A stretch of DNA of 45,154 bases from Candidatus Microgenomates bacterium (GTDB lineage Bacteria; Patescibacteriota; Microgenomatia; JACQLA01): positions 1 through 45,154 of the forward strand of contig JACQLA010000002.1 of assembly GCA_016204255.1 (NCBI GenBank), given 5' to 3'. The notes under the pieces were generated by a model. It was not told the DNA's origin. It did no database searches and saw only the letters and a list, made by a program, of their open reading frames with translations. Below are positions 24,593 through 26,452 of the stretch, one piece after another (position 1 is the first letter of the stretch; each line of letters begins with the position of its first letter). Both the position numbers and the translations under genes were made by a program.

Positions 24593-25228
24593 ATGTTGCT
24601 TTTCCTTGCCGGTTTTGTCATTTTAATACTTTCTATTATTCTTCATGAAGTAGCCCATGGCTATGCCGCCAATTATTTAGGCGATCCCACCGCCCGTATT
24701 TCAGGAAGATTAACCTTAAATCCCATTCCTCATATCGATCCTGTAATGAGCGTTGCTTTACCGCTTATTTTGGTTCTTTCGGGTTCACCGGTTATTTTTG
24801 GTTCGGCCAAACCCGTCCCGATTGATCCATTTAACTTTCGGGAATCAAGAAAGGACATGGGCATCGTGGGTTTGGCCGGACCCGGCACGAATCTCGCCTT
24901 GGCTATTTTGGCCGCACTTTTAACCAAAATTTTACTCATTATCGACCCGCCTATTTATTATACTGAAGTCCCACTCGCCCTTTTGAGACTAATGGCCTTT
25001 TATAATCTTCTTTTGGCTGCATTTAATCTAATCCCTATCCCCCCGCTGGATGGCTCACGAATCCTGGCAGCCATTCTTCCTGAAAAACAGGCTCATTTTC
25101 TGGACTTCTTAGAACCATATGGAATTTTTATTCTATTCTTTCTGCTTCTTTTTCCCGTCGGCGGGTTTTCCCTAGGATATATGATTTTCAATCTTGTTTC
25201 TTTCTGGTTGCGACTTTTAGGTTTTTAA
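24593..25228 (+). CDS. Site-2 protease (M50 family)
   Basis: HEVAH, LAGP..N, FNLIPIPPLDG. Confidence 0.95.
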   Translation: MLLFLAGFVILILSIILHEVAHGYAANYLGDPTARISGRLTLNPIPHIDPVMSVALPLILVLSGSPVIFGSAKPVPIDPFNFRESRKDMGIVGLAGPGTNLALAILAALLTKILLIIDPPIYYTEVPLALLRLMAFYNLLLAAFNLIPIPPLDGSRILAAILPEKQAHFLDFLEPYGIFILFFLLLFPVGGFSLGYMIFNLVSFWLRLLGF

Positions 25229-25298
25229 ACATTAAATTTTAATTAAAATTTAATAGCTAAAAATGGCGATTTGGGCTTTCTGACGACCTCCACTATCC

Positions 25299-25327
25299 TT
25301 GACTTTAAGCGTAAAATGTGATAAAAA
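25299..25327 (+). promoter_or_regulatory. Putative promoter of the ncRNA
   Basis: TTGACT-17 nt-TAAAAA with extended TG. Confidence 0.5.
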
Positions 25328-25347
25328 TATCTTGCTAAAAGCAGTCT

Positions 25348-25507
25348 ATCCCTGCCGAGCACGTTTCAAAATTAAGGAAGTTTTTCCTCACAGACTCTCG
25401 AGACTTTGGGTTTGGGCGAAGTCCTCGTTTCGCTGAGGCGGGACAGGCAGCTCTCCCACTTTGAAGCTTCGGGGAAATACCCTTAGTTTGCACGACCTGG
25501 TGGGGAT
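25348..25507 (+). ncRNA. ssrS: 6S RNA-like structured ncRNA
   Basis: Rod fold by eye: ATCCCTGCC/GGTGGGGAT, CAAA/TTTG, ATTAAGG/CCTTAGT, TTTCCTC/GGGGAAA, then an unpaired central bubble (ACAGACTCTC vs CCACTTTGAAGCTTC) and an apical stem. Own promoter, no ORF. Confidence 0.55.
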
Positions 25508-25581
25508 TTTCTTAAAAACTCTTCGATAATATTTTTATGAGTCTTCAGTTTATTTAAACCCTCAATGCCTTCTCACCTCAA

Positions 25582-25610
25582 TTGAAATTAGTCTTTCATT
25601 TTACTATAAT
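25582..25610 (+). promoter_or_regulatory. Strong sigma70 promoter of the tRNA locus
   Basis: TTGAAA-17 nt-TATAAT. Confidence 0.75.
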
Positions 25611-25668
25611 ATTGAAGCTTGCAGAACTCCCAAAGTCCGGGGAGAAGTTTTAGTTAACCCATAATTTT

Positions 25669-25936
25669 GCCGGGGTAACTCAGTGGCCCGTCTCGAATCG
25701 GCGCTCGAGCCGAGGCGGATAGAGTAACTGTTTTTGCCCCAGTAAAATCTTGCCAATTTTGATAAAATTGGCTTAAATTCACGGGATCCCGAAATTTCAA
25801 GCCGACTTAGCTCAGTGGTAGAGCAACTGTTTTGTAAACAGTAGGTCGTCGGTTCAAATCCGACAGTCGGCTCCAAAAGTCGGCAGAAATTTCTGGGATA
25901 AACAGCAAGTCGTGGGTTCGAATCCCACTCCCGGCT
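25669..25936 (+). tRNA. Interrupted outer tRNA gene (Thr-like body), pieces 25669-25686, 25720-25736, 25899-25936; functional status unknown
   Basis: Acceptor GCCGGGG/TCCCGGC, D stem ACTC/GAGT, anticodon stem ACTGT/ACAGC, T arm GTGGG-TTCGAAT-CCCAC, T73. Insertions of 33 nt (D loop) and 162 nt (anticodon loop). Confidence 0.75.
25801..25875 (+). tRNA. tRNA-Thr(TGT), nested inside the outer tRNA
   Basis: Canonical cloverleaf: GCCGACT/AGTCGGC, GCTC/GAGC, ACTGT-TTTGTAA-ACAGT, GTCGG-TTCAAAT-CCGAC, T73, encoded CCA. Confidence 0.97.
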
Positions 25937-25975
25937 CAGCGATAGCAAAGCGGGATAAACAACAGAGATTAGAAG

Positions 25976-26058
25976 GCTGGAGTACGGAAGTAGACAAACC
26001 GACCTGACTGTAAATCAGGTGCCTCACGGCTTCGTAGGTGCAAATCCTGCCTCCAGCA
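25976..26058 (+). tRNA. tRNA-Tyr(GTA)
   Basis: GCTGGAG/CTCCAGC, CGG/CCG D stem, CCTGA-CTGTAAA-TCAGG, long variable arm, A73. Confidence 0.93.
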
Positions 26059-26095
26059 CCCAAGTCTAACTTGGAAAATGTCGACTTTAGATTGG

Positions 26096-26452
26096 CTAGT
26101 CGGAAGAAGGAAGAGGCTTAGGATTCTCTAAACTCATAGGCATATCGCAGCAATACGGTCTACCACCTTCTTGATCTTGAGGATCTTTAACAGAGGACTT
26201 TTTCGTACACAATATTTGCGTCTCACAACCAAAATTTATCTCACCGGCGCTAGTTTTTCTTATGCCACCTTTTAGCTCTGTTACCTCAATTCCCTCTCGT
26301 ATCCTTGTGAATGGATTAGCACATTTATAGCGTTTTCCTAATTGAGACACAGCTCCTTCCCGATATGGTTTTCCGTCACTAACCTGAGTTGTCCATTCAT
26401 GACCATCTTCTAATTTTGCGGTAGCGGTTATTACCGGCGCTTCTTTACTCAT
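26096..26452 (-). CDS. Small Cys-rich desulforedoxin-like metal-binding protein
   Basis: QLGKRYKC...CETQILCTK...YCCDMPM pattern. ATG 26452 is preceded by TGcTAAAAAT. Confidence 0.6.
   Translation of the reverse strand: MSKEAPVITATAKLEDGHEWTTQVSDGKPYREGAVSQLGKRYKCANPFTRIREGIEVTELKGGIRKTSAGEINFGCETQILCTKKSSVKDPQDQEGGRPYCCDMPMSLENPKPLPSSD

What the first reader, a model, noticed from the sequence alone, without database searches (positions are those of the whole stretch)
25687..25898. Shared junction rule for palindromic insertions in the outer tRNA
Seen: both interruptions sit at G^TA, start with CCC and end with GGA. Insert 1 (33 nt) is C-CCGTCTCG...CGAGGCGG-A. Insert 2 resolves into hairpin A (25737-25786, CCCCAGTAAAAT..GCCAATTTT-GAT-AAAATTGGC..AATTCACGGGA) and hairpin B (25787-25898, TCCCGAAATTTC...GAAATTTCTGGGA). 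All three end GGA followed by T, with no target duplication, and another CGGGA|TAAACA occurs at 25951-25961. Inference: one site-specific mechanism (HUH/REP-like ssDNA insertion, or RNA-level excision) recognises hairpin ends rather than internal sequence.
Basis: partly seen in the sequence, partly recalled or inferred. Interest (0 to 1): 0.8.

Follow-up and report, generated by a model that had tools for sequence, protein, structure and literature searches.

The report
Replacement tRNA nested in dead tRNA
A threonine tRNA gene of a tiny groundwater bacterium is split by a small hairpin-ended insert that carries its own working copy of the same tRNA, a Russian-doll design that recurs across this bacterial group and that I could not find described.

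Summary
The sequence facts hold. An outer tRNA-Thr gene (25669-25936) is interrupted at 25687-25719 (33 nt, D-loop) and at 25737-25898 (162 nt, anticodon loop). There is no target duplication.

The 162-nt insert is one copy of a conserved two-hairpin element:
- Its ends read TCCCAG..CGGGA | TCCCG..CTGGGA.
- It sits 3' of T(T/C)G in tRNA loops.
- It carries a complete tRNA of the same kind as the gene it splits.

I found 42 such cargo copies (Thr, Cys) and 6 cargo-free copies in Microgenomates-type genomes, including triple nests. Every interrupted copy has an intact twin inside or beside it. Only 14 of 34 outer genes are still read as a tRNA once the insert is removed.

The window's copy is degenerate: an extra T, a C for T at its first base, and weakened hairpin A. 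The 33-nt insert belongs to a different GC-rich hairpin family found in D-loops of other dead tRNA pieces.

Best reading (0.6): a DNA-level, target-specific, non-autonomous mobile element that replaces the tRNA gene it destroys. The enzyme is unknown. No Y1 transposase, RtcB or EndA was found in this 81%-complete genome. RNA-level splicing is not excluded (about 0.12).

The parts
25669..25686 (+). Outer tRNA-Thr gene, piece 1: acceptor 5' strand, D-stem 5' strand and D-loop up to GG.
   Evidence: Read directly. It pairs 7 of 7 (one G-U) with 25929-25935. It forms a cloverleaf with the other two pieces in ARAGORN. The same tRNA type is uninterrupted here in G070.
25687..25719 (+). Insert 1: a 33-nt GC-rich hairpin in the D-loop (8-bp arms, unpaired C and A tails). 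It belongs to a different family from insert 2.
   Evidence: Fold (z = -1.15). Three further copies with the same arms are in this genome: one beside the 16S 5' end, one in the D-loop of an orphan tRNA-Leu fragment, one in a coding region. The G070 orthologue is an exact empty site.
25720..25736 (+). Outer tRNA-Thr gene, piece 2: D-stem 3' strand, anticodon stem 5' strand and the loop up to TTTTTG. It has one T more than the family consensus.
   Evidence: The extra T is reproduced in contigs of four runs.
25737..25786 (+). Hairpin A of the two-hairpin element. Its loop holds an extended -10-like word (TGATAAAAT, 25760-25768) pointing at the inner tRNA.
   Evidence: z = -3.08. It is 47 of 50 identical to copies in two Levybacteria-labelled records, and the 3 differences weaken the stem (14 vs 21 pairs). 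The TGNTANNNT word occurs in 27 of 42 copies, 32-43 nt before the tRNA. The same word precedes ordinary tRNA genes in these genomes (read by eye).
25787..25800 (+). Left arm of hairpin B (TCCCG...), leader of the inner tRNA.
   Evidence: Together with the first 8 nt of the tRNA it pairs with 25877-25898. The arms differ between genomes but stay complementary.
25801..25875 (+). Inner, intact tRNA-Thr(UGU) with encoded CCA. It is the only UGU isoacceptor found in this assembly.
   Evidence: ARAGORN. Rfam tRNA 77.6 bits. Genome-wide ARAGORN list.
25876..25898 (+). Right arm of hairpin B. It contains a repeat of the acceptor 3' strand followed by ...CTGGGA, the right end of the element.
   Evidence: The right end is CTGGGA in 30 of 34 parsed relatives.
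25899..25936 (+). Outer tRNA-Thr gene, piece 3: TAA of the anticodon loop, anticodon stem 3' strand (A27-C43 mismatch), variable loop, T-arm, acceptor 3' strand and discriminator. No CCA is encoded.
25950..25961 (+). Possible relic of a further right junction (GCGGGA|TAAACA) between the outer tRNA and tRNA-Tyr. No 5' partner was found.
   Evidence: Read directly. Second right junctions follow the outer gene in other loci, such as L076 and L146. Rfam finds no further tRNA piece upstream. This is inference.
25976..26060 (+). tRNA-Tyr(GUA), the usual downstream neighbour of tRNA-Thr(UGU). It marks the locus as the ancestral Thr-Tyr site.
   Evidence: ARAGORN. Thr-Tyr adjacency is seen in 5 of 11 relatives' loci and in G070 and G109.

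Best explanation
Insert 2 is a decayed copy of a small, non-autonomous, target-specific mobile DNA element of Microgenomates-type (CPR) bacteria.

**The element**
- It is about 156-172 bp and has two adjacent hairpins.
- Its ends are short inverted repeats (TCCCAG ... CTGGGA), with an internal dyad CGGGA|TCCCG.
- It inserts without target duplication immediately 3' of T(T/C)G. It is found in the single-stranded loops of tRNA genes: the anticodon loop, or the T-loop read on the other strand.

**How it survives**
- Such an insertion destroys the tRNA gene. Copies therefore survive only where an intact gene of the same tRNA is present.
- The successful form carries that gene itself. Hairpin A often supplies an extended -10 promoter. 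Hairpin B encloses a complete tRNA in a long stem.
- The element therefore replaces the gene it breaks. The carried tRNA keeps the target word and can be hit again, which gives Russian-doll nests.

**This window**
- The outer tRNA-Thr is the dead resident gene. The inner one is the working gene.
- Insert 1 is a separate GC-rich hairpin of a kind that accumulates in D-loops of dead tRNA pieces.

**Shown versus inferred**
- Shown: anatomy, boundaries, target word, recurrence, presence/absence between congeners, decay of the outer genes.
- Inferred: mobility as DNA, promoter activity, the selective logic, and the enzyme, which is unknown. Candidates are RAYT-like Y1 proteins or the small GIY-YIG nucleases that sit beside tRNA genes.
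For: 1. **Recurrence.** 20 of 400 other genomes of the class, from 10 families, match beyond the inner tRNA into hairpins and outer halves. This is a lower bound, because only 150 matches were listed and 119 more were not. A pattern scan of 185,579 species genomes brought further copies, mostly titled Levy-, Roizman-, Gottesman-, Woesebacteria or Microgenomates.
2. **Boundaries.** Of 42 distinct cargo copies, 34 right ends were parsed. CTGGGA ends 30 of 34. Length is 156-172 bp in 33 of 34. No duplication was seen.
3. **Cargo matches target.** A Thr cargo has a TAAA flank in 26 of 27 copies. A Cys cargo has a CA flank in 6 of 7.
4. **New sites.** The same ends occur in Ser and Glu anticodon loops and in T-loop fragments without cargo. 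There are 6 such elements, and each lies within about 100 nt of an intact tRNA. For five that tRNA is of the fragment's kind; for L069 the kind is unclear. In G401, 4 of the 28 GGGATCCC sites are this element, and all 4 are in tRNA pieces.
5. **Outer genes decay.** After exact removal, ARAGORN calls a tRNA in only 14 of 34. Halves are mismatched or truncated in L054, L032, L033 and L116. The window's own outer gene has an extra T, a stem mismatch and a D-loop insert.
6. **Presence/absence.** G070 carries the nest. Its congener G109 has a plain tRNA-Thr at the syntenic Thr-Tyr locus. G070 is also an exact empty site for insert 1.
7. **Horizontal spread.** Hairpin A here is 47 of 50 identical to copies in another order-level lineage, and the 3 changes weaken its stem.
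8. **Nests.** Triple nests occur in L023, L031, L065 and L076.
9. **Splicing machinery.** No RtcB or EndA was found here. RtcB is in 1 of 5 element-bearing genomes.
Against: - No transposase is linked to the element.
  - No Y1 gene was found in this genome (the genome is 81% complete).
  - The four Y1 loci scanned lack the hairpins.
  - The Y1 enrichment (18 of 20 vs 221 of 380, Fisher p = 0.004) is not corrected for relatedness.
- The element is not repeated in this genome. blastn-short finds no other copy of either insert. GGGATCCC occurs 5 times against 4.6 expected. Mobility is therefore inferred from other genomes.
- No excised circle or filled/empty polymorphism was seen in the four runs laid.
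- Several unrelated-looking hairpin inserts occupy the same anticodon-loop site of tRNA-Thr (L022, L023, L031, L033). This is unexpected for independent transposons. It could mean an RNA-level or structure-driven process, or old divergence.
- Between two Levybacteria copies the outer T-stem shows two compensatory pair changes (L021 vs L116). This hints at continued constraint on part of the outer gene.
- How a tRNA comes to lie in hairpin B, always co-oriented with the target, is not explained.
- The pattern used fixes the left junction and the central dyad, so those features are biased in that subset.
Confidence: 0.6

Rival explanations
1. The inserts are RNA-level intervening sequences. The whole nest is transcribed, an unknown endonuclease cuts at the base of each terminal helix, and a ligase rejoins the outer tRNA. 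One locus would then yield two (or three) tRNAs.
For: - All inserts lie in loops of the tRNA (D, anticodon, T).
- Their terminal helices bring the exon ends together.
- 14 of 34 outer genes are perfect after exact removal.
- Different hairpin families share the same anticodon-loop site.
- The outer T-stem shows compensatory changes between L021 and L116.
- CPR rRNA genes hold many short (<200 bp) ORF-less insertions that are neither group I nor group II introns (PMC11270868, passages read).
Against: - Every one of the 48 elements examined has an intact tRNA inside it or beside it, of the kind of the gene it splits wherever that could be read. A spliced intron would not need this.
- 20 of 34 outer genes are broken beyond the insert.
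- The site follows a DNA word (after G35 in Thr, after G34 in Cys and Ser, T-loop on the opposite strand), not a tRNA position.
- In this window exact removal leaves a 6- or 8-nt anticodon loop.
- I saw no bulge-helix-bulge geometry. This was by inspection only.
- No EndA or RtcB in this genome. RtcB is in 1 of 5 element-bearing genomes.
- No intron family is found by Rfam.
Confidence: 0.12
2. There is no transposition of the hairpin element as such. Nests and partial tRNA duplications would be by-products of double-strand breaks made in tRNA genes by free-standing homing-type nucleases (the small GIY-YIG proteins). The breaks would be repaired from foreign or sister DNA, with the conserved tRNA halves acting as homology arms. 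The hairpins would be processing or promoter structures that travel with the cassette.
For: - This genome has 8 small GIY-YIG genes. One was confirmed by Pfam (E = 2.4e-16).
- 6 of the 8 lie within about 80 nt of tRNA genes.
- 3 of them follow an orphan 5' fragment of the very tRNA that lies downstream, and each fragment has a hairpin in its D-loop.
- Such genes number 4-13 in each of 5 of 5 element-bearing genomes (counts include a ~430-aa GIY-YIG protein, probably UvrC, in each). They lie a few hundred bases from several nests.
- L133 shows a tandem partial duplication of the kind expected from recombinational insertion.
- Phage T4 SegB is a GIY-YIG homing endonuclease in a tRNA gene cluster (PMC2330249, abstract in the listing).
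Against: - Homology-driven spread cannot move the same ends between Thr, Cys, Ser and Glu anticodon loops and T-loops.
- No GIY-YIG gene lies on the window's contig.
- The cleavage specificity of these proteins is unknown.
Confidence: 0.15
3. Chance resemblance or an assembly artefact: a chimeric contig joining pieces of two tRNA-Thr genes.
For: Contigs in public assemblies break inside the inner tRNA, as expected for a sequence shared by many organisms.
Against: - The junction-bearing flanks are reproduced with 0 differences in four runs of two studies.
- The same architecture is present in dozens of independent assemblies, including long contigs.
- The outer halves pair 7 of 7 in the acceptor stem.
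Confidence: 0.01

Closest known systems
REP / BIME / REPIN palindromic repeats mobilised by RAYT (Y1 HUH) transposases
   Same: - Short imperfect palindromes that often occur as adjacent dimers.
- Conserved stems with variable loops.
- No target duplication.
- Y1-domain genes are common in this class (239 of 401 genomes).
   Different: - Only one to a few copies per genome.
- Confined to tRNA-gene loops.
- Carries a whole gene.
- Ends read TCCC..GGGA rather than the GTAG or CGTC tags described in PMC3733652 (passages read).
- No Y1 gene in this genome, and none seen flanked by the hairpins.
IS200/IS605 family and its miniature derivatives (recalled knowledge of IS608-type insertion)
   Same: - Insertion immediately 3' of a fixed short word.
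- No target duplication.
- Hairpin-forming ends.
- Preference for single-stranded or loop DNA is plausible.
   Different: - The ends here are true short inverted repeats, with a central perfect dyad.
- No tnpA or tnpB lies next to any copy examined.
Integrative elements that target tRNA genes and restore the 3' part of the gene (tyrosine integrases; recalled)
   Same: The same logic: the invader makes good the tRNA gene it interrupts, and the anticodon loop is a favoured site.
   Different: - Here a complete tRNA with promoter is carried, and the old gene is left as two flanking halves.
- There is no direct repeat of a tRNA part and no integrase. The nearest ORFs are a Peptidase_M50 protein and three ORFs without a Pfam family.
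- The insert is only about 165 bp.
Archaeal bulge-helix-bulge tRNA introns, including multiple and mobile introns of Thermoproteales (recalled)
   Same: Several interruptions per tRNA gene, at the D-loop and anticodon loop, with hairpin-forming inserts.
   Different: - The host is a bacterium (16S).
- No BHB geometry was seen by inspection.
- No EndA or RtcB was found.
- A back-up tRNA is always present.
- The outer genes decay.
Group I introns in bacterial tRNA anticodon loops (PMC3984707, abstract in the listing)
   Same: Location in the anticodon loop of a bacterial tRNA gene.
   Different: - No group I match at Rfam gathering score or at E up to 10.
- Only 87 nt of the insert lie outside the inner tRNA, which is too short for the ribozyme.
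Free-standing GIY-YIG homing endonucleases in tRNA clusters (T4 SegB, PMC2330249, abstract in the listing)
   Same: Small GIY-YIG genes abut tRNA genes in this genome, with duplicated tRNA pieces.
   Different: No such gene is inside or next to the nest in the window. Any link to the hairpin element is untested.

Membership tests
REP/REPIN-RAYT system | Many dispersed copies of one short palindrome per genome | tested here: not met
   No second copy of insert 2 in G000. GGGATCCC occurs 5 times against 4.6 expected. G401 has only 4 element copies among its 28 dyad sites. Insert 1 arms occur 4 times in G000.
REP/REPIN-RAYT system | GTAG or CGTC tetranucleotide tag at one end (PMC3733652, passages) | tested here: inconclusive
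   The element ends are TCCCAG/CTGGGA, with no tag. Insert 1 has CGTC inside its 5' arm in 2 of its 4 copies, but the stem and tail layout was not compared with the published families.
REP/REPIN-RAYT system | A RAYT (Y1) gene in the genome, typically flanked by the repeats | tested here: not met
   PF01797 is absent from G000, which is 81% complete. It is present in 5 of 5 element-rich genomes, but the 4 Y1 loci scanned hold no such hairpins.
IS200/IS605-type miniature element | Insertion 3' of a fixed tetra- or pentanucleotide without target duplication | tested here: met
   TTTG in 8 and ATCG in 1 of the 9 copies found by similarity alone. TTTG in 41 of 42 overall, though the pattern imposes it in part. 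One TTTT case (L177) and T-loop cases TTTG and ATCG. No duplication.
IS200/IS605-type miniature element | Unlike left and right ends with subterminal hairpins, and a Y1 TnpA acting on them | tested here: inconclusive
   The ends are 6-9 nt inverted repeats, with a bulged base in each hairpin. Enzyme action cannot be tested with these tools.
Archaeal-type (BHB) tRNA intron | Bulge-helix-bulge motif at both junctions | tested here: not met
   By inspection, both junctions lie directly opposite each other at the base of a continuous helix, with no 3-4-3 geometry. No dedicated tool was run.
Archaeal-type (BHB) tRNA intron | Splicing endonuclease and RtcB-type ligase encoded | tested here: not met
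   PF01974 gives 0 hits and PF01139 gives 0 hits in G000. RtcB is in 1 of 5 element-bearing genomes. Caveat: G000 is 81% complete.
Group I intron | Ribozyme core recognisable by covariance model | tested here: not met
   Rfam gives only the two tRNAs at gathering score. No intron family appears at E up to 10 over 25200-26100.
tRNA-targeting integrative element | Direct repeat of the tRNA 3' part at both ends, and an integrase gene | tested here: not met
   The layout is nested, not repeated. The neighbouring ORFs are a Peptidase_M50 protein and three ORFs with no Pfam family.
Integron gene cassette | attC with RYYYAAC / GTTRRRY cores (recalled definition) | tested here: not met
   Read by eye. 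The ends are TCCCAG/CTGGGA and the target is TTTG^TAAAC. Neither fits the cores.

The most novel reading that the evidence does not exclude
The hairpin-ended inserts would be genuine bacterial tRNA intervening sequences removed at the RNA level by an unknown cut-and-rejoin system. Microgenomates would then express 'Russian-doll' precursors that yield two or three tRNAs from one locus. This would be a third kind of tRNA splicing, beside group I and BHB introns, in a bacterium that lacks RtcB and EndA.
Probability: 0.1. Interest if true: 0.95.

Novelty: new variant of a known kind. Interest (0 to 1): 0.72.

Why it matters
- **A different way to invade a tRNA gene.** tRNA genes are classic landing sites for mobile DNA because they are conserved. 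Known invaders either splice out (introns) or restore the missing end (integrative elements). Here a roughly 165-bp element appears to invade single-copy, essential tRNA genes by bringing a complete, promoter-equipped replacement. The old gene is left as two dead halves, and the new gene is open to the next invasion.
- **Drive and turnover.** This is a minimal 'gene-replacement' strategy in genomes of under 1 Mb. It also offers a way for tRNA genes to turn over horizontally.
- **Annotation.** tRNA finders report only the inner gene, so the outer halves and hairpins go unannotated.
- **Leads for experiments.** The dead halves date successive invasions. The conserved ends and target word give a defined substrate for finding the responsible enzyme in a group with no genetics.
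- **If the RNA-level rival were true,** it would be a new bacterial tRNA splicing system.
- **Published record.** I found no description in nine searches of the held library.

Tried and rejected
- **Repeats within the genome.** blastn-short of 25380-25975 against all 8 contigs found no other copy of either insert. Dyad counts are at expectation.
- **Archaeon idea.** Rejected. The 16S is bacterial, 1305.8 bits.
- **Cyanobacterial short-repeat idea** (my first guess from G+C content). Dropped once relatives proved to be genomes of about 0.8 Mb of one class with Microgenomates-type record titles.
- **Moving junction 2 by -3..+3 on each side.** Only a shift of the 3' cut by one base gives a 7-nt loop, and that reads Gln(UUG), which does not fit the Thr-like body.
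- **Expression.** No RNA holder was listed for this stretch, so nothing can be said about expression.
- **Read laying.** No contig skipped insert 1 or insert 2. Contigs cannot show absence.
- **Y1 gene neighbourhoods.** No element hairpins in 4 loci.
- **23S rRNA.** Only a truncated 5' part lies at a contig end, so it is uninformative for short insertions.
- **Rfam at E up to 10.** No tRNA remnant upstream of 25669 that would partner the possible third junction.
- **Earlier-findings tool.** It was closed, so no earlier notes were seen.
- **Literature.** Searches gave nothing on nested or hairpin-interrupted tRNA genes in CPR.
  - PMC7143001 (passages) mentions only rRNA introns.
  - PMC11270868 (passages) has 0 occurrences of 'tRNA'. 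Its supplementary tables of short uncharacterised rRNA insertions could not be seen and might hold related hairpins.
- **Call errors.** One search term was too long, and one fold item was too long (redone).
Full report
**1. The observation**

- A tRNA-like gene starts at 25669. It is broken at 25687-25719 (33 nt) and at 25737-25898 (162 nt), and it ends at the discriminator, 25936.
- ARAGORN and Rfam see only the complete tRNA-Thr(UGU) inside the second insert (25801-25875; 77.6 bits) and the tRNA-Tyr downstream.
- Joining the three outer pieces by coordinates gives a cloverleaf with a 7-bp acceptor stem and good D and T arms, but a 6-nt (or 8-nt) anticodon loop. ARAGORN cannot name it.
- Both inserts are flanked G^..^TA, begin with CCC, end with GGA, and duplicate nothing. 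CGGGA|TAAACA recurs at 25951-25961.
- Contigs of four public DNA runs from two studies reproduce the junction-bearing flanks with no difference. Some of these runs may be the source sample.
- Hairpins A and B fold far better than shuffles (z = -3.08 and -7.14). The 33-nt insert does not (z = -1.15).

**2. The organism**

- The window is a whole contig of a 712-kb, 81%-complete assembly.
- It has a bacterial 16S and is the only held member of its order.
- Its class consists of genomes of about 0.8 Mb.
- Named records with the same element are titled Levy-, Roizman-, Gottesman-, Woesebacteria, Microgenomates or WWE3. One record is titled Paceibacterota and one Saccharibacteria.

**3. Insert 2 is one copy of a family**

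- Neither insert is repeated in this genome.
- A similarity search of 400 other genomes of the class found 20 genomes, in 10 families, whose match runs beyond the inner tRNA into the hairpins and outer halves. The best is G070, 84% over 219 nt. Only 150 matches were listed and 119 more were not, so 20 is a lower bound.
- A pattern scan of species genomes added more copies. About two thirds of the listed hits were chance matches in coding DNA of unrelated bacteria, as expected for the pattern.
- After removing duplicates there are 42 copies that carry a tRNA.
- The layout is constant: ...T(T/C)G | TCCCAG-hairpin A-CGGGA | TCCCG-arm-[complete tRNA]-arm-CTGGGA | rest of the interrupted tRNA.
- The right end could be parsed in 34 of the 42 copies:
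  - CTGGGA ends 30 of 34.
  - Length is 156-172 bp in 33 of 34.
  - There is no duplication.
- The left flank is TTTG in 8 and ATCG in 1 of the 9 copies found by similarity alone, including the window. The pattern scan imposes TTTG on the rest.
- The window's own left end departs from the consensus: an extra T, and C for T as the first base.
- Its hairpin A is 47 of 50 identical to two Levybacteria-labelled copies. All three differences weaken the stem (14 against 21 pairs). It therefore looks like a decaying copy.

**4. Cargo and target**

- The carried tRNA is of the kind that is interrupted:
  - A Thr cargo has a TAAA flank in 26 of 27 copies.
  - A Cys cargo has a CA flank in 6 of 7 copies.
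  - Cargo and target are co-oriented even where the element is flipped (5 Cys copies).
- The insertion point follows a DNA word, not a tRNA position:
  - after G35 in tRNA-Thr;
  - after G34 in tRNA-Cys and tRNA-Ser;
  - after TTTT in one tRNA-Glu;
  - after TTTG or ATCG of the T-loop read on the other strand.
- Six copies have no cargo (L069, L101 twice, L133, L140, L177).
  - Each sits in a fragment of a tRNA gene, within about 100 nt of an intact tRNA.
  - The intact tRNA is of the fragment's kind in five of them (Ser twice, Glu, His, Gly). In L069 the T-arm fragment differs from that of the neighbouring tRNA-Leu.
- L133 is a tandem partial duplication: promoter plus tRNA-Ser 1-41 with the element, followed by the promoter plus the intact gene.
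- In G401 the dyad GGGATCCC occurs 28 times, against 1 for the reversed control. Of these sites:
  - 4 are this element, all in tRNA pieces;
  - 11 belong to an unrelated inverted-repeat element;
  - the rest are unrelated.

**5. State of the outer genes**

- After exact removal of the insert, ARAGORN calls a tRNA across the junction in 14 of 34 copies. In 12 of these the anticodon is the expected one.
- The other 20 have mismatched halves, truncations or further inserts. Examples are L054, L032, L033 and L116, whose anticodon stem is destroyed.
- Triple nests occur in L023, L031, L065 and L076.
- G070 and its congener G109 are syntenic around Thr-Tyr. G109 has a plain tRNA-Thr, with no halves or hairpins.
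- G070 carries the same outer tRNA type as the window but lacks insert 1. It has a normal 7-nt loop once insert 2 is removed, so it is an exact empty site for insert 1.

**6. Functions of the hairpins (inferred)**

- Hairpin A holds TGNTANNNT, the extended -10 word that also precedes ordinary tRNA genes in these loci (read by eye). It occurs in 27 of 42 copies, 32-43 nt before the cargo:
  - 26 of 33 Thr copies;
  - 1 of 4 Cys copies in the same orientation;
  - 0 of 5 flipped Cys copies.
- Hairpin B pairs the leader and the first bases of the tRNA with the trailer. The arms differ between genomes but stay complementary.
- This could serve precursor processing, or recognition of the element as folded DNA. 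The data do not tell which.

**7. Insert 1**

- Its arms recur three more times in this genome:
  - beside the 16S 5' end, with the same unpaired C and A tails and a ^TA flank;
  - in the D-loop of an orphan tRNA-Leu fragment, with a ^TAGA flank;
  - in a coding region.
- Related GC-rich hairpins sit in D arms or T loops of outer or orphan tRNA pieces in L022, L053, L157, L133, L032, L065 and L114. The positions differ. L065, L114 and the window share the right boundary ..GGCGGA^TA.
- Insert 1 is therefore a second family. The likeness of its ends to those of insert 2 is limited to CC..GG.

**8. Candidate enzymes**

- This genome has no Y1 transposase, RtcB or tRNA-intron endonuclease (completeness 81%).
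- Y1 domains occur in 239 of 401 class genomes.
  - They occur in 18 of the 20 nest-bearing genomes, against 221 of 380 others.
  - Fisher p = 0.004, not corrected for relatedness.
  - The four Y1 loci scanned are not flanked by the hairpins.
- RtcB is in 1 of 5 element-bearing genomes.
- This genome also has 8 small GIY-YIG genes (one confirmed by Pfam, E = 2.4e-16).
  - 6 lie within about 80 nt of tRNA genes.
  - 3 follow an orphan 5' piece of the downstream tRNA with a hairpin in its D-loop.
- Such GIY-YIG genes number 4-13 in each of 5 element-bearing genomes; each count includes a ~430-aa GIY-YIG protein, probably UvrC.
- T4 SegB is a known GIY-YIG homing nuclease in a tRNA cluster (PMC2330249, abstract in the listing).

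**9. Verdict**

- The best-supported reading is a DNA-level, target-specific, non-autonomous element that breaks a tRNA gene and supplies its replacement. The window's outer gene would be a relic, and insert 1 a separate hairpin in a dead gene (confidence 0.6).
- The strongest arguments are:
  - the universal back-up copy;
  - the decay of the outer genes;
  - the word-defined rather than position-defined site;
  - the spread of identical ends to different tRNAs;
  - the congener polymorphism.
- The weak points are:
  - the missing enzyme;
  - the lack of direct evidence of movement;
  - the sharing of one site by dissimilar hairpin inserts;
  - hints of constraint on outer T-stems.
- These weak points keep RNA-level excision alive (0.12). 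Nuclease-driven recombination without transposition is a further rival (0.15).
- I found no published account. See the searches listed under Tried and rejected. Supplementary tables of PMC11270868 could not be seen.

Noticed in passing
G000:C5:22590-22979 (L199 about 190-580). Also G000:C2:183560-183992 and G000:C5:145653-146110.: Small GIY-YIG nuclease genes sit directly upstream of tRNA-Glu, tRNA-Asn and tRNA-Leu(CAG). Each is preceded by an orphan copy of the first 19-32 nt of that same tRNA, with one or two small hairpins inserted in its D-loop. The tRNA-Glu ORF runs 12 nt into the tRNA. 6 of the 8 such genes in this genome lie within about 80 nt of a tRNA gene.
   Followed up: partly
G000:C2:11158-11651 (L014 1501-1994): The RNase P RNA gene spans 494 nt for a 367-position model and scores 60.7 bits, below the gathering score of 100. 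It has an extra TCCCCGAT..ATCGGGGG hairpin. It also has a roughly 90-nt insertion near the 3' end that repeats the following 14-nt segment of the gene.
   Followed up: no
G000:C5:306061-306096: A hairpin with the same 8-bp arms and C/A tails as insert 1, but a different loop, lies a few bases from the 5' end of the 16S rRNA gene, on the opposite strand.
   Followed up: partly
window 25950-25961: GCGGGA|TAAACA lies between the outer tRNA-Thr and tRNA-Tyr. It looks like the right junction of a third, outermost nest level. No left partner was found.
   Followed up: partly
L023 (G266), L031 (G285), L065, L076: These are triple nests: two successive tRNA 5' halves, one intact tRNA, then one or two 3' halves. 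In L031 the surviving 3' half looks like a chimera of two T-arms, as if a deletion had occurred between them.
   Followed up: partly
L022 (G090), L023 (G266), L031 (G285), L033 (G101): Hairpin inserts with quite different end sequences (CCTGCCCGCC.., AAGT.., AGTTACACG..) also carry a tRNA-Thr at the same anticodon-loop site. In L023 the G of the anticodon is missing at the junction.
   Followed up: no
G401 contigs: L173-L175, L179, L182-L185, L188, L191, L192: A different miniature element, with terminal inverted repeats GTCATTGCGAG and a central GGGATCCC dyad, accounts for 11 of the 28 dyad sites in that genome.
   Followed up: no
L197 (G109:C2), between tRNA-Thr and tRNA-Tyr: An ORF of about 230 aa lies between the two tRNA genes. 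By eye it has a helix-turn-helix-like start and a LAGLIDADG-like motif. It was not tested against any library.
   Followed up: no
L049, L071, L096, L102, L115, L121, L123: Records titled 'uncultured Gammaproteobacteria' carry the element. L071, L115 and L121 show the same sequence over the printed flanks as L019 (G399), L017 (G070) and L032 (G146), which belong to the window's class. The titles therefore look like placeholder taxonomy.
   Followed up: no
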